A stretch of 64,000 nt of DNA from Pseudomonadota bacterium (GCA_039714975.1 JBDLIH010000001.1:34756-98755); one strand, 5' to 3'; shown: positions 10,677-43,342, counted from the stretch's first letter. Numbers and translations are program-made. The notes: generated by a model from the sequence alone, not told the origin.

Positions 10677-11429
10677 CTAGATCGGCCGCGCCTCCCGCAT
10701 CAGCCGTTTCATGTCTGCAACAGCCGTTGCCAGCCCGGTAAAAACGGCCTGCGCAATAATGGCGTGACCAATATTCAACTCACGGATCTCCGGGATGGCC
10801 GCGATCTGTTTTACATTGTGATAGTGCAACCCATGACCGGCATGCACCGTTAGCCCGGCAGCAACGCCCTGGCGAACCGCCTCCACGATACGGGCCAGTT
10901 CCCCGGCCTGCTGCGACGCATCACCGGCATCGGCAAAATGACCGGTATGGATCTCAATACAGGGGGCACCTGATTCGGCGGCCGCAGCAATCTGCCCGGG
11001 ATCGGCATCAATAAACAGGGAGACACGGATACCGGCTGCCTGCAGACATGCACAGGCCTCGCGTATCCGGGGTAACTGGCCAGCAACATCAAGCCCGCCC
11101 TCGGTGGTCAATTCCTCACGCCGCTCGGGTACCAGACAACAGTCCTCCGGTTGTACCCGTTCGGCAAACGCCAACATGTCGTCTGTCACCGCCATTTCCA
11201 GATTCATACGGGTCTGCAAAATATCTTTCAGCATCAGCACGTCACGTTCCTGGATATGACGGCGGTCTTCACGCAAGTGCAGCGTGATGCTGTCTGCACC
11301 GGCCTGTTCCGATTCGATGGCCGCCTGCACCGGGTCCGGATAGCGCGTACCCCGTGCCTGACGCAGCGTCGCGACGTGATCAATATTCACACCCAGCAAC
11401 AATTCAGCATCGTGTCCCATAGTCTTCAA
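10677..11429 (-). CDS. pdxJ: Pyridoxine 5'-phosphate synthase
   Basis: [30 protein letters not shown]...[12 protein letters not shown]: strong PdxJ identity. Start ATG overlaps the recO stop as ATGA (11426-11429). Confidence 0.93.
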
Positions 11430-12196
11430 CCTGTCCCTTGATTAGCCGCTGTTGCCACCGTTTCACGCTGTCCTGCATGTGACATAACCGACAACTGGCG
11501 TAACACTTCCCGGGTACGCAACGGCCGTGCGCCCAGATACAGTGCCAGCGCTGCACGCATCAGGCGTTTGACCTCGCGGCAAATCTGTGACTCCTGCAGT
11601 TCATCGCGGTGCAGTGCCAGCAGACTGGAGCCATGCAGGAAGATACCCGCATCACCTGTCTGTTGACACCGCACCGGCCCCCTCTCCAGGTGATATTCAT
11701 AGAGCAGGTCTTCCCGGACCGGCGTACCGCTGTCGAACTCGTGTTCCAGCAGCAAGCCGTAACCCAGCGACTCCAGCAGGCGTTTTTCAAAAACACGCAA
11801 TGCCTGCTCCTCGTTCATGCCCAGCATCATGATCGCCTGCTCATAGGCATCAAATATTCCGGGGTGTGGGTCATGCCGGGTCATCAGCCGCAGCAATAAC
11901 TCATTCAGATAACAGGCACACAGGATCTGGCGCCCCGGGAATATGTCAACCGCCCCGCGACTCTCCACACCTGTCAGGGTACCCAGCTCACCACGCAGAC
12001 TCCATGACAACGCCAGTGGCCGTAATATCTGCAACTGGTTCCGGCTGCGCGACCGTGCAGACCGTGCACCACGCGCAACCAGCCCGATGCGTCCGTATTC
12101 CCGGCTGAACACCTCCAGCAGCAGGCTTGAATCCCGGTAAGGGTGTTGATGCAATATCCAGGCGGGTTCGAGTGAGACTCTTGTTGTTTGCGTCAT
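11426..12196 (-). CDS. recO: DNA repair protein RecO
   Basis: 256 aa, [32 protein letters not shown]... N-terminal OB fold and C-terminal helical domain. Sits in the canonical era-recO-pdxJ order. Confidence 0.9.
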
Positions 12197-32432: not shown

Positions 32433-32750
32433 GCAGTCGTGGCCGGAGTGTGACATTCACACTGATTTGATTGAGGAAACAGATTGAATGCGTACAAAGC
32501 CTAAACACGGCTGCTTCTTTCTGAATCCCCAAGAATCAGTTTACGGCCCCAATGTAACCTGGAGGAGTGGCAGCACTGAGACGCACACTGTGTGATCTAC
32601 TTACAATTCAAACTGTGATGACATCCGCAAGGTGTCTCGCGCCCAAGGCCGCTCTACGGCGAGAATGACCATTCAGCCGGATCTGTTCAGCCCGCATTCA
32701 GCGAACATTGCCTATCCTGTCTGTGAACCATGAAAAACAGGAGACAGACA

Positions 32751-33278
32751 ATGAAACGCATAATGACTGTAATGACATTCGGTATTTCGGTACTGGCATT
32801 CTCCGGTGCGGCCGTCTCGGGGCATGGCTTCATTGACAAGGCCAGGGTCGTCGAGGCGACACCACTGTATGAAACCGTTGAAGTGGCGCAACCTGTCAGG
32901 GAGTGCTGGACCGAAAGGGTCACCCGCAACAGCCATGGGCATGGGTCCTATGTCGCACCGATTGCCGGTGGTATTGTCGGCGGCGTGCTCGGCCACCAGT
33001 TCGGCGGGGGGCGTGGGAAAACAGCGCTGACCGTCGCCGGTACACTGCTTGGCGCCTCACTCGGACACGGCTACAGCACCTCCCACCACCAGCCACGGTC
33101 CACGGTTGAATACATGGAACGCTGTGAGACCGTTGATCGTTATGAACAGCAGCAACAACGCGTCGGCTATCGTGTAAAATACCGCTATGAGGGACAAACC
33201 TACTACACTGAAACCACTGAGCACCCGGGTAAATTTATACCGGTGCGCGTCAGGGTCTCGCCGGCTAACGGCATTTGA
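32751..33278 (+). CDS. Glycine-zipper (2TM) outer-membrane lipoprotein-like protein
   Basis: ATG 32751 with AGGAGA RBS (M8 of track ORF). Signal peptide, then GGIVGGVLGHQFGGGRGKTALTVAGTLLGASLGHG glycine zipper. C-terminal RVGYRVKYRYEGQTYYT motif shared with the paralog at 35760..36158. Confidence 0.7.
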   Translation: MKRIMTVMTFGISVLAFSGAAVSGHGFIDKARVVEATPLYETVEVAQPVRECWTERVTRNSHGHGSYVAPIAGGIVGGVLGHQFGGGRGKTALTVAGTLLGASLGHGYSTSHHQPRSTVEYMERCETVDRYEQQQQRVGYRVKYRYEGQTYYTETTEHPGKFIPVRVRVSPANGI

Positions 33279-33300
33279 TGCCGTATCACACACCATACCT

Positions 33301-33609
33301 ATGACCTGGGCACGACTGATTACTGCCTGGCTGACCCTGTTACTGGCCACCGGCCCGGTAATCGCGGCTCCGTTTCATCACCCCCCCCTGCAAATTGCGC
33401 AACGCGACAATGCAGGCAGAGGCGGCATCAGCCTGGACGAGGCAGTCGCGCAGACACGGCAGCAACACAAAGGCAAGGTCCTGTCTGCGGAGACCACCCG
33501 CGTCGACGGCCGCAAGGTCTACCGCATCAAGATCCTGACGAAGGACGGGCGGGTCAAGCGCACCCGCATAGATGCCCGTACCGGGCAAACAATGTCACGC
33601 GGACGTTGA
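33301..33609 (+). CDS. PepSY-domain periplasmic protein
   Basis: ATG 33301 (M39 of track ORF). Signal peptide, then KGKVLSAETTRVDGRKVYRIKILTKDGRVKRTRIDARTG (PepSY beta-hairpin). Stop lies 4 nt before the response regulator start. Confidence 0.65.
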   Translation: MTWARLITAWLTLLLATGPVIAAPFHHPPLQIAQRDNAGRGGISLDEAVAQTRQQHKGKVLSAETTRVDGRKVYRIKILTKDGRVKRTRIDARTGQTMSRGR

Positions 33610-33612
33610 GTC

Positions 33613-34296
33613 ATGCATATCCTGGTTGTCGAGGACGAAACCCGCCTGCGGGAACAACTCAGGAAGCGCCTGCGTGACAGCGGCTACGCCGTCGATGTAG
33701 CGGCCGACGGTGAAGAAGGCCTGTACTATGGCGAAGAATATCCACTCGACATGGCAATTATCGATATCGGGCTGCCGAAACTGTCCGGCATCGAACTGAT
33801 CCGCCGCCTGCGTGCCCGGGACAAGCATTTCCCTATCCTGATCCTGACGGCCAGGGGCAACTGGCAGGACAAGGTGGAAGGCCTGGAGAGCGGCGCCGAT
33901 GATTACCTGGTCAAACCGTTTCGCTTCGAAGAACTCGAGGCGCGCTTGAATGCCCTGCTGCGACGCGCATCCGGCTGGTCGAAACCGGTGCTGGACTGTG
34001 GACCGGTTTCGCTGGACACCGGCAAACAATGCATCACGGTCTCCGGCAGTCCCGTGGAACTGACCGCCTTCGAGTACCGGGTGCTGGAGTACCTGATGCT
34101 GCATGCCGGTGAGGTCATCTCCAAGACCGAATTGACGGACAATCTCTACGAGCAGGATTACGACCGTGACAGTAACGTACTGGAAGTTTTCATAGGACGA
34201 CTGCGCCGCAAGCTGGACCCGGACAACACCATCAACCCCATAGAAACACTGCGTGGCCGCGGTTATCGATTCCGGCTGGAAGCAAACGCCGGCTGA
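33613..34296 (+). CDS. OmpR/PhoB-family response regulator (PhoP-like)
   Basis: MHILVVEDETRLRE...D51-type receiver, winged-helix C-terminus (TLRGRGYRF). 227 aa. Confidence 0.9.
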   Translation: MHILVVEDETRLREQLRKRLRDSGYAVDVAADGEEGLYYGEEYPLDMAIIDIGLPKLSGIELIRRLRARDKHFPILILTARGNWQDKVEGLESGADDYLVKPFRFEELEARLNALLRRASGWSKPVLDCGPVSLDTGKQCITVSGSPVELTAFEYRVLEYLMLHAGEVISKTELTDNLYEQDYDRDSNVLEVFIGRLRRKLDPDNTINPIETLRGRGYRFRLEANAG

Positions 34297-35645
34297 TGCA
34301 TTCCCTGCACAGTCGACTGCTACTGGCTGCTTCCCTGGTACTTGCCGGATTCCTCGGCGCAACCGGTCTCGCGCTCGACAAGGCCTTTCGTGTCAGTGCC
34401 GAGGCCGCCATGCAGGACCGCCTGCAGTCTCATGTCTACGCCCTGCTCGCTGCTGCAGACGAAGATGGGGACGGCCGCATGATCCCGGCAGATGAGCTAC
34501 CGGAGCCACGTTTTTCGAAACCGGACTCAGGTCTGTATGCTGTTATCAGCAACCACGACAGTGAACCGCTGTGGCACTCCGGTTCACTGACCGGCCGGGA
34601 CTTTGACCTGGGGGAACAGCAAAAACCCGGTGAGCGCCGCTTTAACCGGCTTGCCCGTTCGGGCATGCAACTGTATGCCCTCGCGTATGGCGTCGCCTGG
34701 GAAGACTATGCCGGTACGGAATCACTGTATACGTTCACTGTGGCAGAAGACACCTCTGTGTTCCAGGCAGAGATTGACAGTTTCCGCTCCACCCTGTGGC
34801 GCTGGCTTGGCGGCATGGCACTGGTGTTGCTGCTCGCGCAGGGTTTCATCCTGCGTTGGGGCTTGCGGCCACTGCGGACCGTCACCGCCGACCTGCAACA
34901 GATCGAACAGGGCCGCACTGACCGCCTTGACGGACACTACCCCAAAGAACTCACCGGCCTGACCTCCAGCCTGAATTCCCTGGTCGAACACAGCAAGGCA
35001 GTACAGGTCCGATACCGCAACAGCCTCGATGACCTCGCCCACAGCCTGAAAACACCTTTGGCCATTTTGCAGTCCAGTGATGCAGACGACCGCAGCGACC
35101 CGGGTGACAATCACGCCCTGGTCAGGGAACAGGTGGAACGCATGGATGAAATCATCAGCCATCAACTGCAACGTGCCGCCGTATCCGGCCGGACCACACT
35201 GGCCAAACCGGTGCCGGTCAGCAAGGTCGTGGAACGGCTGGTGCGCTCCCTCGACAAGGTGTACCGGGAAAAACACGTGACGGTTGAGCTGGAACTGGAT
35301 CCGTCAGTCACCTTCACCGGCGACAAGGCCGACCTGACGGAGATCCTGGGTAACCTGCTGGAGAATGCCTACAAGTACTGTCACCATGCGGTGCGGGTCA
35401 GCGTGAGCACTGATCAACAGGCCGATGGCGTTGAGATCAGAATCGAAGATGACGGCCCGGGCATAACACCTGAACAGGTCGACACACTCCTGCAACGCGG
35501 CAGGCGCATGGACGAGTCAATACCCGGCCAGGGCATCGGCCTGAGCATGGCCAACGAGATTATTACCGTGTACGGCGGTCAACTGGTATTTGCTGCCAGC
35601 CCTCTGGGGGGCACCTTGTTGCGGGTAATATTCAACGATCAATAG
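34296..35645 (+). CDS. Sensor histidine kinase (PhoQ-like)
   Basis: Two TMs flanking a periplasmic domain, HAMP, H-box LAHSLKTPLAIL, N/G boxes NLLENAYKY...DDGPGI...GQGIGLS. 449 aa. Confidence 0.88.
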   Translation: MHSLHSRLLLAASLVLAGFLGATGLALDKAFRVSAEAAMQDRLQSHVYALLAAADEDGDGRMIPADELPEPRFSKPDSGLYAVISNHDSEPLWHSGSLTGRDFDLGEQQKPGERRFNRLARSGMQLYALAYGVAWEDYAGTESLYTFTVAEDTSVFQAEIDSFRSTLWRWLGGMALVLLLAQGFILRWGLRPLRTVTADLQQIEQGRTDRLDGHYPKELTGLTSSLNSLVEHSKAVQVRYRNSLDDLAHSLKTPLAILQSSDADDRSDPGDNHALVREQVERMDEIISHQLQRAAVSGRTTLAKPVPVSKVVERLVRSLDKVYREKHVTVELELDPSVTFTGDKADLTEILGNLLENAYKYCHHAVRVSVSTDQQADGVEIRIEDDGPGITPEQVDTLLQRGRRMDESIPGQGIGLSMANEIITVYGGQLVFAASPLGGTLLRVIFNDQ

Positions 35646-35759: not shown

Positions 35760-36158
35760 TCAATGCATCGGCGACAGGCTGACATTTACTGGCATCTGCT
35801 TACCAGGATCGTAAGACATCCGGGTGGTCTCCGTCTCCCTGCCATAACGATAGGTCACCCGATAAGCACTAATGTGTTCACGGGCACGTTGTTCTGTGAC
35901 GTTTCTGCAACGGCGCTGTTGCTGCCACAGACGTGCCTGACTTCGGATATCCTCACCGATGGTCGCCGCGACCCCGTTAAACTCACGCGCCGAACTGTCC
36001 GGTTCCGTGCACACCCGGCGTGTGACCGGCTCATAGCGTGTCTCAATAATCGGCTCCACGTTCAGCACCGGGGCAAAGGCCTGGTATTCAACGGCGTTTG
36101 CGAAACTGCTTATGCAGCTGGTAAATAACAGGATCCCTAGCAGTATTTCAGTTTTCAT
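35760..36158 (-). CDS. YMGG-like lipoprotein paralog (shares C-terminal motif with 32751..33278)
   Basis: ATG 36158 with AGGAAAG RBS (the track M1 is TTG). Signal/lipobox LLFTSC. C-terminal YRVTYRYGRETETTRMSYDPGKQMPVNVSLSP parallels RVGYRVKYRYEGQTYYTETTEHPGKFIPVRVRVSP of the upstream paralog. Confidence 0.6.
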   Translation of the reverse strand: MKTEILLGILLFTSCISSFANAVEYQAFAPVLNVEPIIETRYEPVTRRVCTEPDSSAREFNGVAATIGEDIRSQARLWQQQRRCRNVTEQRAREHISAYRVTYRYGRETETTRMSYDPGKQMPVNVSLSPMH

Positions 36159-36234
36159 TTGTCTTTCCTGCAATTAACCCCTTCGCGCCTTGCAGGCGCG
36201 AACAAAGATTGCCTGTAATTTTCATTTGCAGCAT

Positions 36235-37029
36235 TTATCCAAATCCCATCTTGCCGAGCAACTGCTGCCCCCTGCTCCGCTCAGCCTCATTGGCATACAA
36301 CATCACCACGTCGAAACCGCCAGCCGCTCGACGAAACCAGTCCAGGCGCAACTCGCCGAATCCGGGCTGCAGCCGGTCAACAAAGGCGGCCGCGCGGTAG
36401 GGACGGGAAAAATGGATAATGAACAGGCGACCCTGTCCCGAATAGCGTTGCCCTGGAGCAGCACGACCTGCCTCGCTACGACCATTCAGGACGTAATCAA
36501 GATGCCGCATGATGTAGGCGCTGTACCAGACCGCACCTTCCGGCAAGCGCCCACCGGAAACAGGAATCCGTTCAGGTCCGTAATTATAGGCCGCCAGGGT
36601 GCGATTCAGATCGCCATGATAGCGTTGCTGCAATTCCTTCAGGTAGCGCGCACCTGCATCAACATTAGTACAGGGGTCCAGCACCTCGGACAATCGCTCC
36701 AGACCCAGGTGTTTTGCCGTGCCGGGCCAGAGTATCTGCATCAGCCCGTAGGCATTGGCCTTTGAACGGGCCATTGGTTTGAAATCACTCTCACCCCTGG
36801 CAACGGCCAGTAACAGGGTTTCCGGCAGGTCGTGAGCAATCGCCGCGCGACTGAAACACTGTGCGTATGGAAATTCCAGCGCCGGTTGGGTCTGTTGTGC
36901 AGACTTCGCATACGTCTGCCAGCGTGCTTCCAGTACCCGACTATCAATCGACGGATCTGTTTTTGCGTCAACCGAGATAGCCCGCAGCAAACCCGCACAG
37001 AGTACCACTGTCAATGAATGCCGCATCAT
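36235..37029 (-). CDS. Lytic transglycosylase (SLT domain) with C-terminal SPOR-like domain
   Basis: Signal peptide. ARGESDFKPMARSKANAYGLMQILWPGTAKHLG...AAYNYG (SLT catalytic motifs). C-terminal about 80 aa (GRLFIIHFSRPYRAAAFVDRLQ...FDVVMLYANEAERS) resembles the SPOR fold. Last gene of the seven-gene operon. Confidence 0.7.
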   Translation of the reverse strand: MMRHSLTVVLCAGLLRAISVDAKTDPSIDSRVLEARWQTYAKSAQQTQPALEFPYAQCFSRAAIAHDLPETLLLAVARGESDFKPMARSKANAYGLMQILWPGTAKHLGLERLSEVLDPCTNVDAGARYLKELQQRYHGDLNRTLAAYNYGPERIPVSGGRLPEGAVWYSAYIMRHLDYVLNGRSEAGRAAPGQRYSGQGRLFIIHFSRPYRAAAFVDRLQPGFGELRLDWFRRAAGGFDVVMLYANEAERSRGQQLLGKMGFG

Positions 37030-37031
37030 GA

Positions 37032-37562
37032 CTACTCCAGCTCCAGTCCGGTGACGTCCTCAATTTGAGCGACCATTGCCTGTCGCTCACCGTCATCCCG
37101 GTAACTGAAGACCACCTGGTAATTTTCCGGCCCCTCGCTGATCACTTCCACGGGCACCCCGGTGGCCAGTGTCAGGCGTCGTGCAAACCCCTGTGCGGCC
37201 CACTCACTCCGGAAGGGACTCCAGACCAGGTAATGTGATACCTCCGTGGCCTCATTGCGGTAGGCCGTTTCGTAGCTTGCCATGGATTGATTCCATGACT
37301 GCGGTGTAATCTCAATGTCATCATCGTCAACATCCGGCCGGGATTTCTCATCATGGCTGCTGGCATCGGCAGCCGGAATTACCACGTCCCCAATGACGAC
37401 ATCCTCTGCCGGTACCGGTCCGACGGGTATATCTGCTGCGCTGCTGACGGTCAGCTGTACCGGCACCTGTACTGATGATGGAGACATACCGGCACCCAGA
37501 GCCAGTAAAAAGATGGCCAGCATCAGCAATGCACCCACAAGCATTCCAATTCCCCGTGTCAT
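37032..37562 (-). CDS. SPOR-domain membrane protein
   Basis: Start ATG 37562 forms an ATGA overlap with the stop of the upstream lipoprotein gene. TM helix, acidic linker, C-terminal SPOR domain (YLVWSPFRSEWAAQGFARRL...YQVVFSYRDDGERQAMVAQI). Confidence 0.65.
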   Translation of the reverse strand: MTRGIGMLVGALLMLAIFLLALGAGMSPSSVQVPVQLTVSSAADIPVGPVPAEDVVIGDVVIPAADASSHDEKSRPDVDDDDIEITPQSWNQSMASYETAYRNEATEVSHYLVWSPFRSEWAAQGFARRLTLATGVPVEVISEGPENYQVVFSYRDDGERQAMVAQIEDVTGLELE

Positions 37563-38995
37563 GGCAGTCGCCTCGCTGTCCATACCGTGTGATCAGGGTT
37601 CGACGCAATCAGGCGGTCAAGCCTGTCCAGCCATTGGTCGCGGTTTTCAGTGCCTGTGTGCAGACCACTGACATCACTGCAGGCATCGGGCACGTCGCTC
37701 AACAGCTGGCTGAATTGCCGCCGCTGTTCCACACCCGTGACGGCAATGGCATAGACCGTTGGCCAATCGGACGACGTGAAACGTGATTCAGGAAACCGGT
37801 ACGCATGTCTACCCGGGTGTGACTGCACGGTGGACGTCGTGTCACAGGCACCGGATAGTTGACTAATACCGTCTTTGCTACCGTGTGCAATCACAAATAC
37901 CTGCCCGGCCTGCCCGACATCCACTTCCAGTACCGGGCAACCGCGCAAGCCGTCGCTGCAACCGTCACGATAGGCATTACTGCTTGCGTACCGCACCAGT
38001 TCCATGCGGCTTATGGTCGGCGTCATGCCGCTGTTTTCCTGTACCACGCTGTGCGTGCCGGGACTGTTGGGGCTATTGCCGGCAGGCGGGATACGGACGT
38101 AGGTCGCCGTGTCCATGCCGGCAAGGTGTACGCCGGAGTCCCCGGGATGCAGTACCACCCAAACCTGGTAAAGGTCCGGCTGTATCATGTGGGTCTCACC
38201 ACGAAGAACAAGGTTCGCTTGCCGGCCTGCATCGGTCACCTGCACCTCGCGGTAACGTGACAGGTTGTTGCCGATCAGGCCCAGCAGGGTGCGCAGCTGT
38301 GGCTGATCAGAGCTAATCTGATCGACCTTGATTTTCAGGTCTTCCACATCCTGCTGACGTAGCAGGCAACTCAGGTTGTTGGCCAGGTAAGTAGCGGCCA
38401 GGTCCGGCTGTCCGGCACTGAAGGGCAAGACCCTGAGACCCCGCAGTGACTCATCTGTATGCCGCACTTGCAGGGCACGTAACTCACTGCCGGTCAGATT
38501 CCCCGACCAGTGATGACCGAAACCGCTGACCCATTCACCCGCCTTGACATCCAGGGCACGCACCGACACCCGAAAGCGGGCCGTGGCTGTGCGTGTTATT
38601 TCGATACCAATAAAATAACTGGCATCACGGATTCTGCCGCACTGCACCTGGTCCAGCCGACGATGATGTTGCACCTGCTGTTGTTGCGGTTGCCAGGGCA
38701 CGTGGACGCCCGGGATTTTCAGCAGACTGTCCATAAGCTGGTCACGCATACCGCGCGTTAAACCGTCAATATCCGGCTGTATATCATCGCCATCGAGGCG
38801 CACAATAATCACGGGTTCGCCCTTGAAGCGTGGATGCTGGCCCAGTTGTTGCGACACATAGGGTGCGAGCTCGGTAGCCACCCAGTCCTGCAGCAAGGAC
38901 TCTGTGCTGTGTCCGGAACGCAAGGGCGTCTGGCTGCAGCCTGCAGTCAATAGCAGGACCAGTAATGCAAACAGGGTGTGTCGCCCGGTCATCAT
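37559..38995 (-). CDS. Large uncharacterised lipoprotein
   Basis: Start ATG 38995 (M54 of track ORF), 4 nt after the stop of the upstream coiled-coil gene. Lipobox LLLTAGCSQ. 478 aa with no recognisable catalytic motif. Confidence 0.6.
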   Translation of the reverse strand: MMTGRHTLFALLVLLLTAGCSQTPLRSGHSTESLLQDWVATELAPYVSQQLGQHPRFKGEPVIIVRLDGDDIQPDIDGLTRGMRDQLMDSLLKIPGVHVPWQPQQQQVQHHRRLDQVQCGRIRDASYFIGIEITRTATARFRVSVRALDVKAGEWVSGFGHHWSGNLTGSELRALQVRHTDESLRGLRVLPFSAGQPDLAATYLANNLSCLLRQQDVEDLKIKVDQISSDQPQLRTLLGLIGNNLSRYREVQVTDAGRQANLVLRGETHMIQPDLYQVWVVLHPGDSGVHLAGMDTATYVRIPPAGNSPNSPGTHSVVQENSGMTPTISRMELVRYASSNAYRDGCSDGLRGCPVLEVDVGQAGQVFVIAHGSKDGISQLSGACDTTSTVQSHPGRHAYRFPESRFTSSDWPTVYAIAVTGVEQRRQFSQLLSDVPDACSDVSGLHTGTENRDQWLDRLDRLIASNPDHTVWTARRLP

Positions 38996-38999
38996 GGCA

Positions 39000-39968
39000 T
39001 CACTTCTCCAGTACCACCTGACCGTCACTGCGGATGACCAGCACCCCACCCTGCTGCCCCCGTGTCTGTTCTCCCTGCATAAGCAAGGCAATGGCCGCTT
39101 TTGTAGCCACGGGCAATTGCACTCCCCAGACCACGAGGGGCCGGGCGATGCCATCTACCGTGTTTTCAAGACCGTGAATATAATGTTCCGGAACGGTCGT
39201 TGCCGACATCTCATGAAACCATCCCGGGAAAGGGACCGGCATAACGACAGGCCGGCCTGCATCCATCGAGAGGCGCCACGCCTGCTGATCGACCATGCCG
39301 TACAGCGAAACGCTACCCGCCGTGACCAGTCGGTCCAGTGCGGCATCGGTAGCGAAACGCAAGGTAAATCCCTGCTTGTCGGGTACAGGCCTGGCTACGG
39401 GCACGGGCTGGTCTGTATTCTGTTGCGACTGACGCTTGACCGCCGCTATTTCCTCACGGTTATGATCAAGCTGCTCCTGCGTGCTCAGAAGTCGTCCGCT
39501 GAGTTGCTCGGGATTGTGTGCTTGCTGCGCCGAATCCTGTTCGATGTCAGCCAGCGCCTGGCGTCCCTGATCAAGCTGACGGTCCAGATTCTCCAGCCGG
39601 GTTTCGAGTCGGTCGCGCAACTCGCGCGCCTGTTGAGTTTGCCCGGCAAGCTGTACAAGGTGTTTTTTTGAGTCAGTCAAAACCTGCTGCGTGCGGTCCT
39701 TTTCTGATTTCAGTGCCTGCAACTCGGCCTGCAGTTCCCGCAGCTGTTGCTGCTGCGCCCGGATTTCCTGCCGTATCCTTGCCGCCTGTAAGACCAGCGC
39801 CGGTTTACCCTGCTCCTGCACCGGAATACCTTGCACCAGCGCAAACACCGCCATCAGACACAGTCCGATAATTGACATGAAGCGCATGACATCCGTTTGC
39901 AGGGCATCGGTATCACTGCCTGCAGCAGAGGCTGATAAAAATCTTGCATGTCGACGGCGCCGGATCAT
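39000..39968 (-). CDS. Single-pass membrane protein with long coiled-coil (uncharacterised; partner of MotA/ExbB-like channel)
   Basis: Start ATG 39968 overlaps the stop of the MotA-like gene (ATGA). TM MRFMSIIGLCLMAVFALV, then about 130 aa of heptad-rich coiled coil (LRELQAELQALKSEKDRTQQ...), then a globular C-terminal domain. Confidence 0.6.
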   Translation of the reverse strand: MIRRRRHARFLSASAAGSDTDALQTDVMRFMSIIGLCLMAVFALVQGIPVQEQGKPALVLQAARIRQEIRAQQQQLRELQAELQALKSEKDRTQQVLTDSKKHLVQLAGQTQQARELRDRLETRLENLDRQLDQGRQALADIEQDSAQQAHNPEQLSGRLLSTQEQLDHNREEIAAVKRQSQQNTDQPVPVARPVPDKQGFTLRFATDAALDRLVTAGSVSLYGMVDQQAWRLSMDAGRPVVMPVPFPGWFHEMSATTVPEHYIHGLENTVDGIARPLVVWGVQLPVATKAAIALLMQGEQTRGQQGGVLVIRSDGQVVLEK

Positions 39969-40630
39969 TGCTCTTCCTGCAAACCACAGGGCGTGCTGCT
40001 GCGTGCACTCGCACAGTCGATAGACTCGCGTATATCACTGAGCAATGCCTCCACCCGGTTGGCGTGGTGCTGTTCCTGTTCCTCGTAGTAGCGACTCAGC
40101 CGGGTACCCAACAGCGAACTCTTGGTCACCCGCATCACGTAGCCGCCAATGCCACCCACGATGGTGGTCGTCAGCGCAGTCAGAATGCCGCCTTCCACCA
40201 AACGCTGCAGCACGGCAGAGGCACCGGCTTCCGCGGCCGCATCTGTATCACCGAGTGCAAACAACAGGGCACTGCGCATACCGATCGCGGTCCAGATTAC
40301 GCCAATACCAAAGAACAGACTGGTCCACACATCGTTCAAATGCTCGAGCTGACTGATCTCATCGAGTGGGCGGTTGTCGTCCAGCCATTGTTTCAAGGTC
40401 CGCAGACTGTGGATATACAAGCCCAGGGTGATACCGAAAGGCAGCACGGATAACCCCAGATTACGGCGGCTCCACTCAAACAGCACCTGAACCTGTGGCA
40501 CTTCGAGAACGGATACCGAGATGAGCTCGAGTACTGTCAGCAGGTACACCACCACCAGGCCGGTGATAAAGCTGAGCATCATACCCAGCAACATGCCGTT
40601 GAAAAAGCCGCGATCCTTCAGCCGTTTCAT
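39965..40630 (-). CDS. MotA/TolQ/ExbB proton-channel family protein (orphan, no ExbD/TolR/MotB partner nearby)
   Basis: 221 aa, 4 predicted TMs. The last two (LNDVWTSLFFGIGVIWTAIGM and GGILTALTTTIVGGIGGYVM) match the conserved channel helices of the MotA_ExbB family (GLLGTV.GM / A.ITT..GL pattern). Confidence 0.65.
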   Translation of the reverse strand: MKRLKDRGFFNGMLLGMMLSFITGLVVVYLLTVLELISVSVLEVPQVQVLFEWSRRNLGLSVLPFGITLGLYIHSLRTLKQWLDDNRPLDEISQLEHLNDVWTSLFFGIGVIWTAIGMRSALLFALGDTDAAAEAGASAVLQRLVEGGILTALTTTIVGGIGGYVMRVTKSSLLGTRLSRYYEEQEQHHANRVEALLSDIRESIDCASARSSTPCGLQEEQ

Positions 40631-40636
40631 TGTTGC

Positions 40637-41194
40637 TTACTCAATCGGCCCACAGGCCTCGCAGGTGGCCTCCAGTACCAGTTCAGTTTCCTGGTAAAGG
40701 TTACTGGCACGTGTATAGTTGAGCCGGTCGACACTGATCCTGAGCAGACCCTGCTCCTTGTCAGCCAGTTCCCGGTTCATGTCACGCATGACCTCGGACT
40801 GCTGCGGGCAGGTCTGTGCGCAGACACTGTAATCACTCACCAGGGACACGTACTTGATACCAAAATAACGGTTATAGATTTCCCGCGCCTGACGCTTGCT
40901 CAACAGGCCGGCATCATTTGCCCACAACAGGAAGTCGCTGAAACTGGCCTTGTTTTCCTTTTTCGGGTCACCCTCTGCAATCGTCAGCAGGCGCTGGAAA
41001 TAGGCATCGAACTCATGTTCGCAACCGGTTTCCAGGTCAAAGCGTGCAGCACTGATGGCGTGTTCCAGGTTCGGCCCCTCCGGCAGGCTGCAGGCCGTTG
41101 CCCTGGTTGTATTACTGCTACAGGCCGCCAGTGAGGTCGTGATGACAGCCAGCGTGAAGAGTCCGGTCAGTTTTGTTTTCATTGATGCGTTCAT
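40637..41194 (-). CDS. Uncharacterised Cys-rich lipoprotein
   Basis: Lipobox SLAACSS. 185 aa with 8 cysteines including a C-terminal CEACG. No family recognised. Confidence 0.5.
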   Translation of the reverse strand: MNASMKTKLTGLFTLAVITTSLAACSSNTTRATACSLPEGPNLEHAISAARFDLETGCEHEFDAYFQRLLTIAEGDPKKENKASFSDFLLWANDAGLLSKRQAREIYNRYFGIKYVSLVSDYSVCAQTCPQQSEVMRDMNRELADKEQGLLRISVDRLNYTRASNLYQETELVLEATCEACGPIE

Positions 41195-41218
41195 GATGGT
41201 TCTCCAGTTCAGTTACTG

Positions 41219-42058
41219 TCACATTTGCAGGGCACTTTCATAACCGCTGTCGGCCGGTCCGGCGGGTGGAATCGCCATCGGAATGACATGGGGTTCTTCA
41301 CCAAACAGGATGCCCTTGACGCCGGCCACCACTTCCTGCATTTCCGGGGTAATGGTCCCGAAGGACTGGTTAAGCTGCTCCATCAGGGTTGCGCGGGCAA
41401 TCTCTTCCCGGGTACGTGCAATCAGGCTGGAGGTTTCCTGCATGTCGAGATAGATATCCGAGGCAATCACAGCCAGTGAGGAATTGGTCCTGCCACCGGA
41501 GCGCGCCACCAGCTTGTAGTATTGGCTAAACCGGTCACTCAGCCGCATACCGGAGCGCCCGCGCAGCGACGGCTGACTGGCAGTGGCCGATTGACCGGAC
41601 TCCTCACCAATCAACAGTTCCTGCAAGGTCCAGGACGTTTTCTTCTGACCCAGCTCCTTGCGAATGCGCTTCTCAAGACTGGAAGATGTGGCATTCACCG
41701 CAGTTTCCATCTCCGGCAGCCTGGCTGCCATAACATCCAGCATTTCGAGATAACTTTTTCCGAGTTGCCTGGCGATACGTTCACAGCCGGGATCACCTTC
41801 ATTTCCCTCGCATTTGCTTTCCAGGTAAAGCTTTTGCTGTTCATCCAGCTGGCCGATGACGGCCTGCAATCCGGTTTCCATCTCCGCTGCAACATTGCCG
41901 GTATGCCTGATTTCCTCCAGCACAGTCGTCGGGAACAACTTGATAGTCGGTGCGGTCGAACTTGCATAAGCGGCCACCGGCAGTAACAGACACCCGGTCA
42001 GCAGCATTCCGAGAAATTGCTGTGTACCTTTTCGTTCACAAATTATTGCTGTAATCAT
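41219..42058 (-). CDS. Uncharacterised secreted protein (first gene of seven-gene operon)
   Basis: Start ATG 42058 with AGGAGG RBS (M14 of track ORF). Signal peptide MITAIICERKGTQQFLGMLLTGCLLLPVAAYA. Helical, no family recognised. Confidence 0.5.
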   Translation of the reverse strand: MITAIICERKGTQQFLGMLLTGCLLLPVAAYASSTAPTIKLFPTTVLEEIRHTGNVAAEMETGLQAVIGQLDEQQKLYLESKCEGNEGDPGCERIARQLGKSYLEMLDVMAARLPEMETAVNATSSSLEKRIRKELGQKKTSWTLQELLIGEESGQSATASQPSLRGRSGMRLSDRFSQYYKLVARSGGRTNSSLAVIASDIYLDMQETSSLIARTREEIARATLMEQLNQSFGTITPEMQEVVAGVKGILFGEEPHVIPMAIPPAGPADSGYESALQM

Positions 42059-42370
42059 TGGGATCCCCTCCTTGCAGTTATTGATTTCATGGTTCACCTC
42101 GATGCCTTCATGTCCCTGTCTTTACGAGCTTTAATATAGGCAAGTGTTCCTGAACAGAACCTGAATGACGATGAAAAGACTGACAGTAATTGTCAACGAG
42201 AAAAAAAAGGCCGCGTATAGAGGCAACCGGCAACGGGAAGGAGACTTCAAGCAAACGACACTGGCAGAGAAAACCGTGTCTGGGAATATGAAGGGGCGTC
42301 TCCCGTCTTTTAGTAAATTCAGCCAGGCACGATTCCATAGTGCTATTCTATCTGATGCTGTCAAACACAA

Positions 42371-43342
42371 TTGCTCAAAGCTTATTCCCTCCGTCACCTT
42401 TTATCCCTATCATTCACCGGTACAGACAACATACCCGGGCGCATAGAATTGAGAAAAACTGTCGTATTTATACTTTCATCCAACTACAGCGGCTCACACT
42501 TCCTGTCGCTGTTAATCGGCAGCCACTCGCATGCAATGCACCTGGGTGAAACCCGACGACTTGCCTCATCAGGCAGCCGGGTTGCAAGCAAGGAAGAACC
42601 CCGATTTTGCTTCGTCTGTGGCAGCCATCAGGAATGCAGCCTGTTCAGGGGGATACAGGAAGTACCGCTTGAGGTGATTTACAGCCACCTTTTCATGCGT
42701 GCAAAGTCAGACACCAGTGTACTGGTTGACACTTCAAAAAAAACCGCATGGGCGCAGCAGTTTGAGAATAACCCTGATTATCGAATACTTTATATCCACC
42801 TGGTAAGGGACCCGAGAGCACTGGTACGCAGATGGTCACAATCCTACACAGACTTTACCGACCGGTTGAAACAAAGAAAAAAACAGTTAACAAAACGTCC
42901 GGCACTGGCATTTGCCCCGCAATGGAAGATCTATACTCACAAATGGCTGCACCAGAACAGGAAAATAACCGATTTTCTGAGCACAAGAGGAAGACAGGGA
43001 TACATCGTCTCCTACCATGACCTTGCAGCCTCAACACACAGTACACTCGCAGAACTGATGCAATGGCTCGGACTTGATTTTGAGCCCGGTCAGATTAATT
43101 ACTGGGAACACGAACATCATGGCACCCAGAAAGCCGACTATGGCTGGATCAACCAAAGTAATAGAACTTTCTTTGACCTGCGCTGGCAGGAAGACATTGC
43201 TGAAGAGGTTCAACAATCCATTGCAACCGACACGGATGTGCTTGCCTATCTCGATGGGATCGGTCTTGCACTTCATGATAACGGTCTGACTCGCATCAGG
43301 GAAGAAAAAGGGACACAGGAATCAAAAGCTTGCCAACCCTGA
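42371..43342 (+). CDS. Sulfotransferase-family protein (Stf0-like)
   Basis: VVFILSSNYSGSHFLSLL (5'-PSB-like P-loop, compare RSGST) and IHLVRDPRALV (3'-PB RDP motif). The track start at 42371 is TTG; the true start is probably the internal TTG near 42449 (LRKTVVFIL). Sits in an AT-richer patch. Confidence 0.55.
   Translation: MLKAYSLRHLLSLSFTGTDNIPGRIELRKTVVFILSSNYSGSHFLSLLIGSHSHAMHLGETRRLASSGSRVASKEEPRFCFVCGSHQECSLFRGIQEVPLEVIYSHLFMRAKSDTSVLVDTSKKTAWAQQFENNPDYRILYIHLVRDPRALVRRWSQSYTDFTDRLKQRKKQLTKRPALAFAPQWKIYTHKWLHQNRKITDFLSTRGRQGYIVSYHDLAASTHSTLAELMQWLGLDFEPGQINYWEHEHHGTQKADYGWINQSNRTFFDLRWQEDIAEEVQQSIATDTDVLAYLDGIGLALHDNGLTRIREEKGTQESKACQP

What the first reader, a model, noticed from the sequence alone, without database searches (positions are those of the whole stretch)
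36235..42058. Tightly coupled seven-gene operon of uncharacterised envelope proteins (secreted protein, lipoproteins, orphan MotA/ExbB-like channel, coiled-coil TM protein, SPOR protein, SLT transglycosylase)
Seen in sequence: seven consecutive minus-strand ORFs with spacers of 24, 6, -4 (ATGA), 4, -4 (ATGA) and 2 nt, i.e. one translationally coupled operon, with strong RBSs where spacers exist. Products in order: a signal-peptide protein (279 aa); a Cys-rich lipoprotein (185 aa); a MotA/TolQ/ExbB-family 4-TM channel (221 aa); a single-pass protein with about 130 aa of coiled coil (322 aa); a large lipoprotein (478 aa); a TM + SPOR-domain protein; and an SLT lytic transglycosylase that may carry a SPOR-like C-terminal tail. 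A glycine-zipper lipoprotein gene follows on the same strand. Established: MotA/ExbB/TolQ proteins are PMF-driven stator channels that normally work with a TolR/ExbD/MotB partner. SPOR domains bind denuded septal glycan. SLT enzymes cleave glycan strands. Inference: the gene set suggests a PMF-energised, septum- or peptidoglycan-targeted envelope machine in which the coiled-coil protein substitutes for the missing ExbD/TolR-type partner. I do not recognise this gene combination as a described system. It is a plausible candidate for a novel cell-envelope or division-associated apparatus.
Basis: partly seen in the sequence, partly recalled or inferred. Interest (0 to 1): 0.65.

Follow-up and report, generated by a model that had tools for sequence, protein, structure and literature searches.

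The report
Unannotated envelope operon with MotA-like motor
A tightly packed seven-gene operon, found in the same order in many marine-sediment bacteria and annotated nowhere, probably encodes a new proton-driven machine that reaches from the inner membrane through the cell wall towards the outer membrane.

Summary
The seven minus-strand ORFs and their spacers (24, 6, -4, 4, -4, 2 nt) are exactly as described. The cluster is real: g1 to g7 occur in the same order in essentially every locus long enough to show it among 80 related genomes (Gammaproteobacteria and Desulfobacterales). A reduced core (g1-g2-g3-g4-SLT) persists at about 31% identity.

Only the SLT transglycosylase passes any curated HMM. 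The "MotA/ExbB" call for g3 fails Pfam thresholds and profile-profile tests. It is supported by fold searches, by recurrent weak PF01618 hits, and by six of its seven invariant residues, including both pore threonines, falling in register on invariant TolQ/ExbB residues.

The partner g4 has an invariant Asp at the start of its single TM helix, like MotB/ExbD/TolR. It also has a 68-210 residue spacer (coiled coil or proline-rich) and a conserved C-terminal domain with no known fold match.

SPOR is not confirmed. Instead, g6 and the SLT tail share one domain. There is no evidence for septal targeting.

Best reading: an undescribed MotAB/ExbBD-type motor whose B subunit is also the periplasm-spanning transducer, with a dedicated cell-wall lytic enzyme. 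This is a new variant of a known kind.

The parts
41219..42058 (-). g1: secreted, mostly helical periplasmic protein of 279 aa. It is the most conserved product of the cluster and has no known family.
   Evidence: ORF; AAGGAGG RBS. The signal peptide is variable, while the mature part is conserved from PTIKLFPTTV to the C-terminus, with two near-invariant Cys (C83, C92). It is 46-92% identical across orthologues in the main set of loci and 25% in L086. No Pfam, NCBIfam or PDB sequence hit.
40637..41194 (-). g2: Cys-rich lipoprotein of 185 aa (lipobox LAAC, Ser at +2). No known family.
   Evidence: 7 Cys. Conserved Cys columns C25, C35, C58, C125, C178 and C181 in 28 orthologues. No Pfam or PDB hit. 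Outer-membrane sorting is inferred from the +2 rule only.
39965..40630 (-). g3: 4-TM inner-membrane protein of 221 aa, a candidate minimal MotA/TolQ/ExbB-type channel subunit.
39000..39968 (-). g4: single-pass partner of 322 aa. It has a basic cytoplasmic N-terminus, a TM helix (24-45) with invariant Asp26, a periplasmic coiled coil (about 57-185), a Pro-rich linker, and a conserved alpha/beta C-terminal domain (200-321).
   Evidence: ATGA overlap with g3. Invariant L23, D26, M28, F30, I33, C37 and L38 in 56- and 64-sequence alignments. AF2 model. The C-terminal domain has no significant Foldseek PDB match. Spacer length is 68-210 aa, either coiled coil or 19-26% Pro.
37559..38995 (-). g5: large lipoprotein of 478 aa (lipobox TAGC, Ser at +2). 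Its N-terminal ~290 residues are conserved even in distant clusters.
   Evidence: L086 orthologue: 29% identity, E 3e-43, over residues 19-286. In a mixed g1/g2/g5 set, 3 of 52 sequences hit DUF4384 at E 5.7e-9; these are presumed, not verified, to be g5 orthologues. No Pfam hit for the window copy and no PDB sequence homologue.
37032..37583 (-). g6: bitopic protein with an N-terminal TM (about 11-29), an acidic linker, and a ~70-aa C-terminal domain shared with the tail of g7. The likely start is 37562.
   Evidence: Invariant W121, F124, A130, G132, F133 and V157. hhalign of the g6 C-terminal domain against the g7 tail gives Prob 95.7%, E 1e-8. SPOR PF05036 reaches only E 0.12 on the isolated domain and 0 of 47 orthologues at E 0.01.
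36235..37029 (-). g7: secreted family-1 lytic transglycosylase (SLT domain 58-155) with a C-terminal ~70-aa domain homologous to the g6 C-terminal domain.
   Evidence: PF01464 at E 1e-26, and 42 of 42 orthologues hit SLT. Invariant E80-S81, G95-x-M97-Q98 and A147-Y148-N149-x-G151 motifs. The tail is homologous to g6. One of 42 orthologues hits SPOR at E 0.0093.
42131..42228 (-). Upstream control region. It holds a terminator-like hairpin (42228-42209) followed by a conserved element, GGAACACTTGCCTATATT (42150-42133), about 90 nt before the g1 start.
   Evidence: Hairpin plus T-run; sequence. GGAACnC-TTGCCTATATT-like elements lie at about -80 to -106 in ~20 of 70 loci, all close relatives. A role as a promoter is inference only.

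Best explanation
The seven genes form one self-contained envelope module whose core is an ion-driven motor of the MotAB/ExbBD/TolQR type.

**Proposed parts.**
- g3 is a minimal 4-TM A subunit. Its last two TM helices carry the Thr-containing pore motifs.
- g4 is the B subunit. Its N-terminal helix, with the invariant Asp, would sit in the g3 ring as the proton-binding axle.
- Unlike MotB, ExbD or TolR, g4 has no OmpA-like or ExbD-like domain. It continues into a long periplasmic spacer (about 130 residues of coiled coil here, roughly 19 nm; proline-rich in other lineages) and ends in a conserved globular head.
- g4 would therefore be both axle and force transducer, doing in one chain what TolR plus TolA, or ExbD plus TonB, do in two.
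- The head is proposed to engage g1 (periplasmic) and the lipoproteins g2 and g5 (predicted outer-membrane).
- g7 (SLT) and g6, which share a small domain, would cut and hold open the peptidoglycan where the stalk passes. Dedicated transglycosylases do this for flagella, secretion systems and the gliding machinery.

**Shown.** Operon structure, conserved synteny, the SLT identity, the invariant Asp and Thr positions, the variable spacer with a conserved head, and the domain shared by g6 and g7.

**Inferred.** The 5:2 assembly, proton coupling, which partner binds which, and the cellular process served. Outer-membrane or cell-wall maintenance is the most likely process. Septal action is possible but unsupported.
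For: **Cluster conservation.**
- g1 to g7 are syntenic in essentially all sufficiently long loci of 80 genomes, from 85% down to 42% g3 identity. These include Sedimenticolaceae, Thiogranum, Woeseiaceae, Motiliproteus, tubeworm symbionts and Desulfobacterales.
- A reduced core, g1-g2-g3-g4-SLT(-g5), persists at about 31% identity.
- No flanking gene is conserved beyond close relatives.

**g3 as a MotA/ExbB-like subunit.**
- 9 of the top 30 Foldseek PDB hits are ExbB, TolQ or ZorA.
- PF01618 is the most recurrent Pfam match among 48 family members. In one member it covers residues 79-187 against profile positions 29-126 of 127.
- Six of the seven invariant g3 columns coincide in register with invariant TolQ/ExbB columns, including both pore Thr.
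- A signature built from these columns hit only 81 g3 orthologues and the 3 true TolQ/ExbB proteins in 2.58 million six-frame residues.

**g4 as the partner.**
- Invariant D26 at the cytoplasmic end of the single TM.
- ATGA coupling to g3.
- A spacer of 68-210 aa that is either coiled coil or Pro-rich, and a conserved head with pLDDT about 90.

**Precedents.**
- TolQ-like genes paired only with an Asp-bearing 'transpore helix' protein and no TolR (PMC12204202, section 8).
- A lytic transglycosylase linked to the Agl gliding motor (PMC11444678 abstract).
Against: - No curated HMM recognises g3 or g4.
- The g3 family profile finds no ExbB, TolQ or MotA chain in the PDB even at E 10.
- hhalign against an 82-sequence TolQ/ExbB profile gives Prob 1%.
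- When restricted to the two TM helices, hhalign scores 10.8. Column-shuffled templates score 11.3 +/- 3.0, so composition alone could produce the similarity.
- The family consensus sequences do not hit PF01618.
- The signature regex was designed after seeing both families.
- The g4 head resembles no known force-transducer or peptidoglycan-binding domain.
- Stoichiometry, proton dependence and partner contacts were not testable here.
Confidence: 0.55

Rival explanations
1. A peptidoglycan-remodelling or envelope-scaffold complex without a motor. On this view g3 is just a 4-TM membrane anchor, g4 is a structural coiled-coil or spacer protein, and the module positions the SLT enzyme with periplasmic and lipoprotein regulators. 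No proton coupling is involved.
For: SLT is the only significant family match. All sequence-profile tests for MotA/ExbB fail. Gly/Ala/Thr-rich TM helices can mimic the motifs, because shuffled templates score as high.
Against: An invariant Asp inside a TM helix is costly and is kept in every orthologue. Both Thr and three Gly align in register with the TolQ/ExbB invariants. Fold searches are enriched for ExbB, TolQ and ZorA. The pair is translationally coupled.
Confidence: 0.22
2. A divergent paralogue of Tol-Pal that does the same job, outer-membrane constriction and stabilisation at division. On this view g5 and g2 stand in for TolB and Pal, and g1 for CpoB.
For: Both are seven-gene units built around a motor, a long periplasmic transducer, a periplasmic protein and lipoproteins. 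The alpha-helical versus Pro-rich spacer dichotomy mirrors TolA domain II (PMC12204202).
Against: No TolB, Pal/OmpA, TolA_C/TonB_C or CpoB/TPR signal appears in any product or orthologue. The g4 TM lacks the SHLS His. Tol-Pal has no dedicated SLT. Whether these genomes also keep canonical Tol-Pal could not be tested. One locus, L042, has a canonical ExbB-ExbD pair 5 kb away.
Confidence: 0.13
3. A Zorya-like or other anti-phage defence module that uses a MotAB-like sensor.
Against: No PADLOC hit for g3, and only coiled-coil noise for g4. There are no nuclease, helicase or other effector genes. The gene order is conserved across orders and two phyla, in locally housekeeping neighbourhoods (purU, hda, pgsA-like) with uniform GC. 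All the accessory products are periplasmic or lipoproteins.
Confidence: 0.02

Closest known systems
TolQ-like motor with 'transpore-helix' vWA partners and no TolR/ExbD (described computationally in PMC12204202, section 8)
   Same: An A-type channel gene is tightly paired with a single-pass protein. That protein's TM carries the conserved proton-binding Asp, and it continues into a spacer and a globular periplasmic head. The B subunit would therefore also be the force transducer, with no separate TolR, ExbD, TolA or TonB.
   Different: - The head here is not vWA and has no PDB fold match.
- The A subunit lies outside Pfam MotA_ExbB and has 4 TM helices with almost no cytoplasmic domain.
- There is one partner gene, not a heterologous pair.
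- The conserved companions differ: g1, two lipoproteins, g6 and an SLT enzyme.
TolQRA-TolB-Pal-CpoB and ExbBD-TonB
   Same: Both are proton-driven inner-membrane motors that act on the outer envelope through a long periplasm-spanning protein, whose spacer is alpha-helical or proline-rich. The operon scale is similar, with periplasmic and lipoprotein partners. The pore Thr motifs and the Asp position match.
   Different: - There is no ExbD/TolR periplasmic domain.
- There is no SHLS-type transducer helix.
- There is no TonB_C/TolA_C, TolB or Pal.
- Axle and transducer are fused in one protein.
- A dedicated lytic transglycosylase is part of the unit.
GldLM (type 9 secretion and gliding motor)
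   Same: A small A subunit with little cytoplasmic mass surrounds a B-subunit dimer. That dimer is itself a long periplasmic shaft delivering energy to outer-membrane components.
   Different: From my own knowledge, GldL/GldM use a different charged pair (Arg on GldM, Glu on GldL) and GldM has four folded periplasmic domains. Here the Asp is on the B subunit, as in MotB, and the shaft is a coiled coil or Pro-rich spacer with a single head. No sequence or fold match to GldL or GldM was seen.
MotAB/PomAB flagellar stator and ZorAB
   Same: 4-TM topology of the A subunit, with N and C termini in the cytoplasm. ZorA gives the best long structural matches. The Asp lies at the start of the B-subunit TM, in a DxMxxM pattern like MotB ADFMTAM.
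   Different: - There is no large cytoplasmic torque-generating domain or ZorA tail.
- There is no OmpA-like peptidoglycan-binding domain on the B subunit.
- There are no flagellar or defence genes nearby, and there is no PADLOC hit.
Machine-dedicated lytic transglycosylases (from my own knowledge: FlgJ/SltF, EtgA, VirB1, IagB; AgmT from PMC11444678)
   Same: An SLT-family enzyme is encoded inside the operon of a trans-envelope machine, presumably to make or hold a local gap in peptidoglycan. NCBIfam's best partial matches are flagellar and T3SS transglycosylases.
   Different: The enzyme carries a C-terminal domain shared with a separate membrane-anchored protein, g6. The machine it serves is not a flagellum, pilus or secretion system.

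Membership tests
MotA/TolQ/ExbB channel family (Pfam PF01618; A subunit of 5:2 motors) | Match to the family HMM at or above the gathering score | tested here: not met
   No PF01618 hit for the window protein at E 0.1. Among 48 family members, 5 hit weakly, with best E 0.0028; the one hit whose score was seen was 12.5 bits, below the 22.9-bit cutoff. The family consensus gives no hit.
MotA/TolQ/ExbB channel family (Pfam PF01618; A subunit of 5:2 motors) | Profile-level sequence similarity to bona fide members | tested here: not met
   The g3 profile against PDB sequences finds no ExbB, TolQ or MotA at E <= 10. hhalign against an 82-sequence TolQ/ExbB profile gives Prob 1%. For the TM3-TM4 region alone the score is 10.8, against 11.3 +/- 3.0 for shuffled templates.
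MotA/TolQ/ExbB channel family (Pfam PF01618; A subunit of 5:2 motors) | Fold of the protomer resembles solved A subunits | tested here: inconclusive
MotA/TolQ/ExbB channel family (Pfam PF01618; A subunit of 5:2 motors) | Two conserved pore Thr (TolQ T145/T178, ExbB T148/T181) in the last two TM helices, within GxxxTxxG and GIxxALxxTxxG motifs | tested here: met
   g3 T114 is invariant and T156 is kept in at least 90% of members. Together with G110, G117, G148, L153 and G159, they align without gaps inside each block to the TolQ/ExbB invariants. The signature is specific in 2.58 million residues. It was designed post hoc.
MotA/TolQ/ExbB channel family (Pfam PF01618; A subunit of 5:2 motors) | Pentamer around a dimer of the partner's TM helices | not testable with these tools
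   No multimer prediction was available.
MotB/ExbD/TolR (B subunit) | Adjacent gene encoding a single N-terminal TM helix with an invariant Asp near its cytoplasmic end | tested here: met
   g4 overlaps g3 by ATGA. D26 is invariant in alignments of 56 and 64 sequences and lies at the start of helix 24-45. The same motif is present in the distant L085 and L086 copies.
MotB/ExbD/TolR (B subunit) | ExbD-type (PF02472) or OmpA-like (PF00691) periplasmic domain | tested here: not met
   No such Pfam or NCBIfam hit on the whole protein or on the isolated N- and C-terminal parts. The g4 profile against the PDB gives only coiled-coil proteins. Foldseek finds nothing significant for the C-terminal domain.
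TolA/TonB periplasmic force transducers | TM helix with the SHLS motif (conserved His) that docks on the outside of the motor | tested here: not met
   The conserved TM sequence is LQTDVMRFMxIxGLCLMAxFALV, with no His or Ser-His-Leu-Ser pattern.
TolA/TonB periplasmic force transducers | Long periplasm-spanning domain II (alpha-helical or Pro-rich) followed by a globular C-terminal domain | tested here: met
   Helix 57-185 plus a head at 200-321. The spacer is 68-210 aa, coiled coil or 19-26% Pro, across orthologues.
TolA/TonB periplasmic force transducers | TonB_C/TolA_C fold of the C-terminal domain | tested here: not met
   No Pfam hit and no significant Foldseek PDB hit.
SPOR domain (PF05036) | HMM match at the gathering score in g6 or in the g7 tail | tested here: not met
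   The g6 C-terminal domain alone gives E 0.12, 13.1 bits, against a cutoff of 21. 0 of 47 g6 orthologues hit at E 0.01. 1 of 42 g7 orthologues hits at E 0.0093. hhalign against FtsN and DamX SPOR domains gives Prob below 4%, though that template was thin.
SPOR domain (PF05036) | beta-alpha-beta-beta-alpha-beta fold that binds denuded glycan | not tested
Binding needs an experiment.
SLT family-1 lytic transglycosylase (PF01464) | HMM match and the catalytic Glu-Ser, GLMQ and AYNxG motifs | tested here: met
   E 1e-26. 42 of 42 orthologues match. E80, S81, G95, M97, Q98, A147, Y148, N149 and G151 are invariant.
Zorya (ZorAB plus effectors) | ZorA/ZorB HMM matches and ZorC/D/E-type effector genes | tested here: not met
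   PADLOC gives nothing for g3 and only JetC/LmuB coiled-coil noise for g4. No effector-like gene lies in the conserved unit.
Tol-Pal system | TolB beta-propeller, Pal OmpA-like lipoprotein, CpoB TPR | tested here: not met
   No such domains appear in g1, g2 or g5, or in 52 of their orthologues. Profile searches of the PDB are empty.

The most novel reading that the evidence does not exclude
This is a separate functional class of ion-driven envelope motor, distinct from Mot, Ton, Tol, Agl, Gld and Zor.
- Its A subunit is a minimal 4-TM protein so divergent that it escapes the MotA_ExbB family model.
- Its B subunit is itself the periplasm-spanning transducer and carries a new head domain.
- It has its own peptidoglycan-cutting enzyme with a membrane-anchored companion, plus three conserved periplasmic or lipoprotein partners of unknown fold.
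- It would energise an outer-envelope process not yet described, in abundant marine-sediment bacteria (Woeseiaceae, sulfur oxidisers, Desulfobacterales).
Probability: 0.4. Interest if true: 0.75.

Novelty: new variant of a known kind. Interest (0 to 1): 0.62.

Why it matters
Proton-driven inner-membrane motors are the only known way Gram-negative bacteria deliver energy to the outer envelope. Only a handful of such systems are understood.

If confirmed, this would be another one, with an unusual design:
- axle and transducer fused in one protein;
- a built-in cell-wall lytic enzyme;
- three conserved partners of unknown fold.

The g3 family has relatives in 365 species-representative genomes. 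It forms 220 clusters at 50% identity and more than 2,700 clusters at 90% identity. Many of the carriers are abundant sediment lineages.

It also shows that family-HMM surveys of MotA/ExbB homologues can miss whole branches.

If g3 turns out not to be a motor, the cluster is still a conserved, wholly unannotated peptidoglycan-associated module worth naming.

Tried and rejected
**Checks on g3 that found nothing**
- Pfam, NCBIfam, PADLOC and PHROGs on all products gave only SLT.
- The g3 profile against PDB sequences gave nothing relevant.
- hhalign of the g3 family against a 2-sequence TolQ/ExbB profile, and then an 82-sequence one, was not significant.
- The region-restricted hhalign recovers the expected register, but its score is no better than with shuffled templates.
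- hmmsearch of the g3 profile against E. coli TolQ, ExbB and MotA scored about 0 bits.
- The family consensus sequences did not hit PF01618.

**Searches and scans that led nowhere**
- A viral-contig scan for TolQ/ExbB relatives, meant to build a profile, returned none.
- Profile searches of the PDB for g1, g2, g4 and g5 gave no homologues beyond coiled-coil noise.
- Foldseek on the g4 model gave no significant match for the head domain.
- Literature searches found no description of this gene set.
- A homologue search seeded with a Woeseiaceae orthologue, aimed at finding a cultured host, returned only metagenome-derived entries.

**Interpretations rejected or left open**
- SPOR stayed below threshold in four Pfam searches (the g6 and g7 products, the isolated C-terminal stretches, and orthologue sets of each) and in one hhalign test.
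- The apparent absence of g5-g7 in the complete genome CP070821.1 is an assembly gap: a run of N lies inside g4.
- A sigma-54 reading of the upstream GGAAC...TTGC element was rejected because the spacing is wrong. An ECF/sigma-E-like reading remains possible but untested.

Full report
**1. Observation**

The window carries seven consecutive minus-strand ORFs between 36235 and 42058:

| Gene | Coordinates | Length |
|---|---|---|
| g1 | 41219-42058 | 279 aa |
| g2 | 40637-41194 | 185 aa |
| g3 | 39965-40630 | 221 aa |
| g4 | 39000-39968 | 322 aa |
| g5 | 37559-38995 | 478 aa |
| g6 | 37032-37562 | 176 aa (183 aa from 37583) |
| g7 | 36235-37029 | 264 aa |

- The spacers are 24, 6, -4, 4, -4 and 2 nt, exactly as reported.
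- g1 has an AAGGAGG ribosome-binding site. g2, g5 and g7 have GGAG-type sites.
- GC content is uniform.
- The neighbours are housekeeping genes: purU, hda, a pgsA-like gene and a PhoPQ-like two-component system. This is ordinary chromosome, not an island.

**2. The cluster is conserved**

The g3 family is small but coherent.
- It forms 220 clusters at 50% identity in 1.84 billion representatives.
- It has more than 1,700 to 2,700 clusters at 90% identity.
- Every source name among the best-scoring clusters listed is 'hypothetical' or an arbitrary label.

A scan of one genome per species found relatives in 365 genomes. The 80 best were fetched. They come from uncultured Gammaproteobacteria (Sedimenticolaceae, Thiogranum, Ectothiorhodospiraceae, Chromatiales, Woeseiaceae, Motiliproteus, Lamellibrachia and Escarpia symbionts) and from Desulfobacterales.

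- tblastn of the window products shows g1-g2-g3-g4-g5-g6-g7 in the same order and strand in essentially every locus long enough, down to about 42-45% g3 identity.
- Median spacers there are 25, 6, -4, 1, 9.5 and 1.5 nt.
- Nothing outside g1-g7 is conserved except g8 and the neighbouring synteny in close relatives.
- Two much more distant contigs (about 31% g3 identity across the alignment; 38-39% over the best local BLAST segment) keep g1-g2-g3-g4-SLT. One of them adds a shortened g5.
- The unit is therefore real. Its irreducible core is g1, g2, g3, g4 and the transglycosylase.
- The one apparent exception, CP070821.1, has a run of N inside g4.

**3. What the products are**

Only g7 is recognised by curated models.
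- It matches SLT PF01464 at E 1e-26, and 42 of 42 orthologues match.
- The E-S, GLMQ and AYNxG motifs are invariant, so it should be an active family-1 lytic transglycosylase.

The other products have no Pfam, NCBIfam, PADLOC or PHROG family.
- g1 is secreted. Its signal peptide is variable, its mature sequence is very conserved, and it has two conserved Cys.
- g2 and g5 are lipoproteins with Ser at +2. By the E. coli sorting rule they would go to the outer membrane, which is an inference.
- DUF4384, a domain of unknown function, was hit by 3 of 52 sequences in a mixed g1/g2/g5 orthologue set. I presume these are g5 orthologues, but this was not checked.

**4. Is g3 MotA/ExbB-like?**

*Against:*
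- The window protein has no PF01618 hit.
- The family profile finds no ExbB, TolQ or MotA in the PDB.
- hhalign against an 82-sequence TolQ/ExbB profile, built from a metagenome scan, gives 1% probability.
- Restricted to the last two TM helices, the hhalign score (10.8) is no better than with column-shuffled templates (11.3 +/- 3.0).

*For:*
- The AF2 model (pLDDT 89) has four TM helices, both termini in the cytoplasm, and a long C-terminal helix.
- In Foldseek no hit is significant on its own, yet 9 of the top 30 among 350,542 chains are ExbB, TolQ or ZorA.
- Among 48 family members, PF01618 is the Pfam family matched most often (5 members, best E 0.0028). In one member the match spans residues 79-187 against profile positions 29-126 of 127, which is the right region.
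- Six of the seven invariant columns of the g3 family (G110, T114, G117, G148, L153, G159) fall, without gaps inside either block, on invariant TolQ/ExbB columns (G141, T145, G148, G170, L175, G181). Near-invariant T156 falls on TolQ T178.
- The two Thr are, from established knowledge of these motors, the pore residues that face the partner's Asp.
- A signature built from these positions matched 81 g3 orthologues, the three genuine TolQ/ExbB proteins and nothing else in 2.58 million six-frame residues. It was written post hoc.

My estimate is that g3 belongs to the MotA/ExbB superfamily with a probability of about 0.75. It is not a member of the Pfam family as currently defined.

**5. The partner g4**

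- g4 overlaps g3 by ATGA.
- Its basic N-terminus is followed by a TM helix (24-45) that begins with LQTDVMRFM.
- L23, D26, M28, F30, I33, C37 and L38 are invariant in 56 orthologues from genomes and 64 from metagenomes. The motif survives in the distant copies.
- The Asp lies at the cytoplasmic end of the helix, as in ExbD (IDVM), TolR (LDVL) and MotB (ADFM).
- After the helix comes a single long helix, 57-147 plus 153-185. Then come a Pro-rich linker and an alpha/beta domain (200-321, pLDDT about 90).
- Profile hits to myosin, tropomyosin and SMC confirm coiled-coil character.
- The head has no significant PDB match (best E 0.038) and no ExbD, OmpA, TonB_C or TolA_C signal.
- Across orthologues the spacer ranges from 68 to 210 residues. 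It is either coiled coil or 19-26% proline, and one distant copy has almost none.
- What is conserved, then, is an Asp-helix, a spacer of variable make and a head. The coiled coil as such is not conserved.
- That is the TolA/TonB body plan, including its helical versus proline-rich dichotomy (PMC12204202), joined to a MotB/ExbD-type helix.

**6. g6 and g7**

- The SPOR call is not confirmed. The isolated g6 C-terminal stretch gives E 0.12. None of 47 g6 orthologues hit at E 0.01. One of 42 g7 orthologues reaches E 0.0093.
- The g6 C-terminal domain and the g7 tail are homologous to each other (hhalign Prob 95.7%, E 1e-8).
- The enzyme and a membrane-anchored companion therefore share a small domain, possibly SPOR-like. 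A plausible role is binding peptidoglycan or each other.

**7. Mechanism proposed**

g3 and g4 would form an ion-driven motor of the 5:2 type.
- The g4 dimer would be both the axle and a roughly 19-nm periplasmic stalk.
- Its head would act on g1, g2 and g5 at or near the outer membrane.
- g7 and g6 would open and hold the peptidoglycan for the stalk.

Stoichiometry, proton coupling and the partner map are all inferred. There is no evidence for or against septal action.

The closest published idea is the TolQ-like plus Asp 'transpore-helix' vWA pairs that lack TolR (PMC12204202, section 8). GldLM is the closest solved design. A transglycosylase tied to a MotAB-type gliding motor is a precedent for the SLT (PMC11444678).

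**8. Rivals**

- A motor-less peptidoglycan-remodelling scaffold (about 0.2).
- A Tol-Pal functional paralogue (about 0.13). This is really a sub-case of the main model.
- A defence system (about 0.02). There are no PADLOC hits and no effectors, the gene order is conserved across orders and two phyla, and this window's neighbourhood is housekeeping.

**9. Verdict**

The operon, the novelty and the ExbD-substitute idea hold. The MotA label is plausible but sub-threshold. The SPOR label and the septal idea are unsupported.
- Novelty: a new variant of a known kind of machine.
- Interest: moderate to high for envelope and motor specialists.

Noticed in passing
window 42133-42150 (minus strand); the same element lies about 80-106 nt upstream of g1 in L002, L005-L007, L009-L011, L013, L014, L017, L018, L023, L027, L028, L030, L031, L034 and L037: A conserved element, GGAACnC-TTGCCTATATT, precedes g1 in close relatives, often followed about 16 nt after GGAACnn by TC. 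It could be an ECF/sigma-E-type -35/-10 pair or an extended -10. The spacing does not fit sigma-54.
   Followed up: partly
window 42209-42228 (minus strand): A terminator-like hairpin followed by TTTTTTTT lies just upstream of the conserved element. It would insulate the operon from upstream minus-strand transcription.
   Followed up: no
window 32730-33278 (+) and 35760-36173 (-): Two YcfJ/UmoD-family (PRK11280) paralogues flank a PepSY-like ORF and a PhoP/PhoQ-like two-component system (33187-35645). The first has the glycine zipper. The second (g8) matches only the C-terminal part of the family and follows g7 in 26 closely related loci.
   Followed up: partly
L001/L007 (CP070821.1), locus coordinates about 11350-11460: A run of N in a genome labelled as a complete chromosome interrupts the g4 orthologue. 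A multicopper oxidase gene follows, so the cluster looks truncated there. This is probably a scaffolding join.
   Followed up: partly
L042 4353-5392: A canonical ExbB-like/ExbD-like pair, next to ComEC-like and LpxK-like genes, lies about 3 kb upstream of the cluster (about 5 kb from g3) in a Sedimenticola thiotaurini MAG. The new module therefore coexists with ordinary ExbBD-type motors.
   Followed up: partly
L086 3560-6317 and 12545-14728; L050 3661-4416: In the distant and Desulfobacterales-type versions, a sigma-factor-like gene lies upstream. In L086 it is followed by a Lon_C-containing protein. L086 also has a 727-aa Peptidase_C1 protein with a second SLT-like region downstream.
   Followed up: no
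window 42371-43342 (+): A divergently oriented 323-aa ORF upstream of the operon has no NCBIfam match. Its function was not examined.
   Followed up: no
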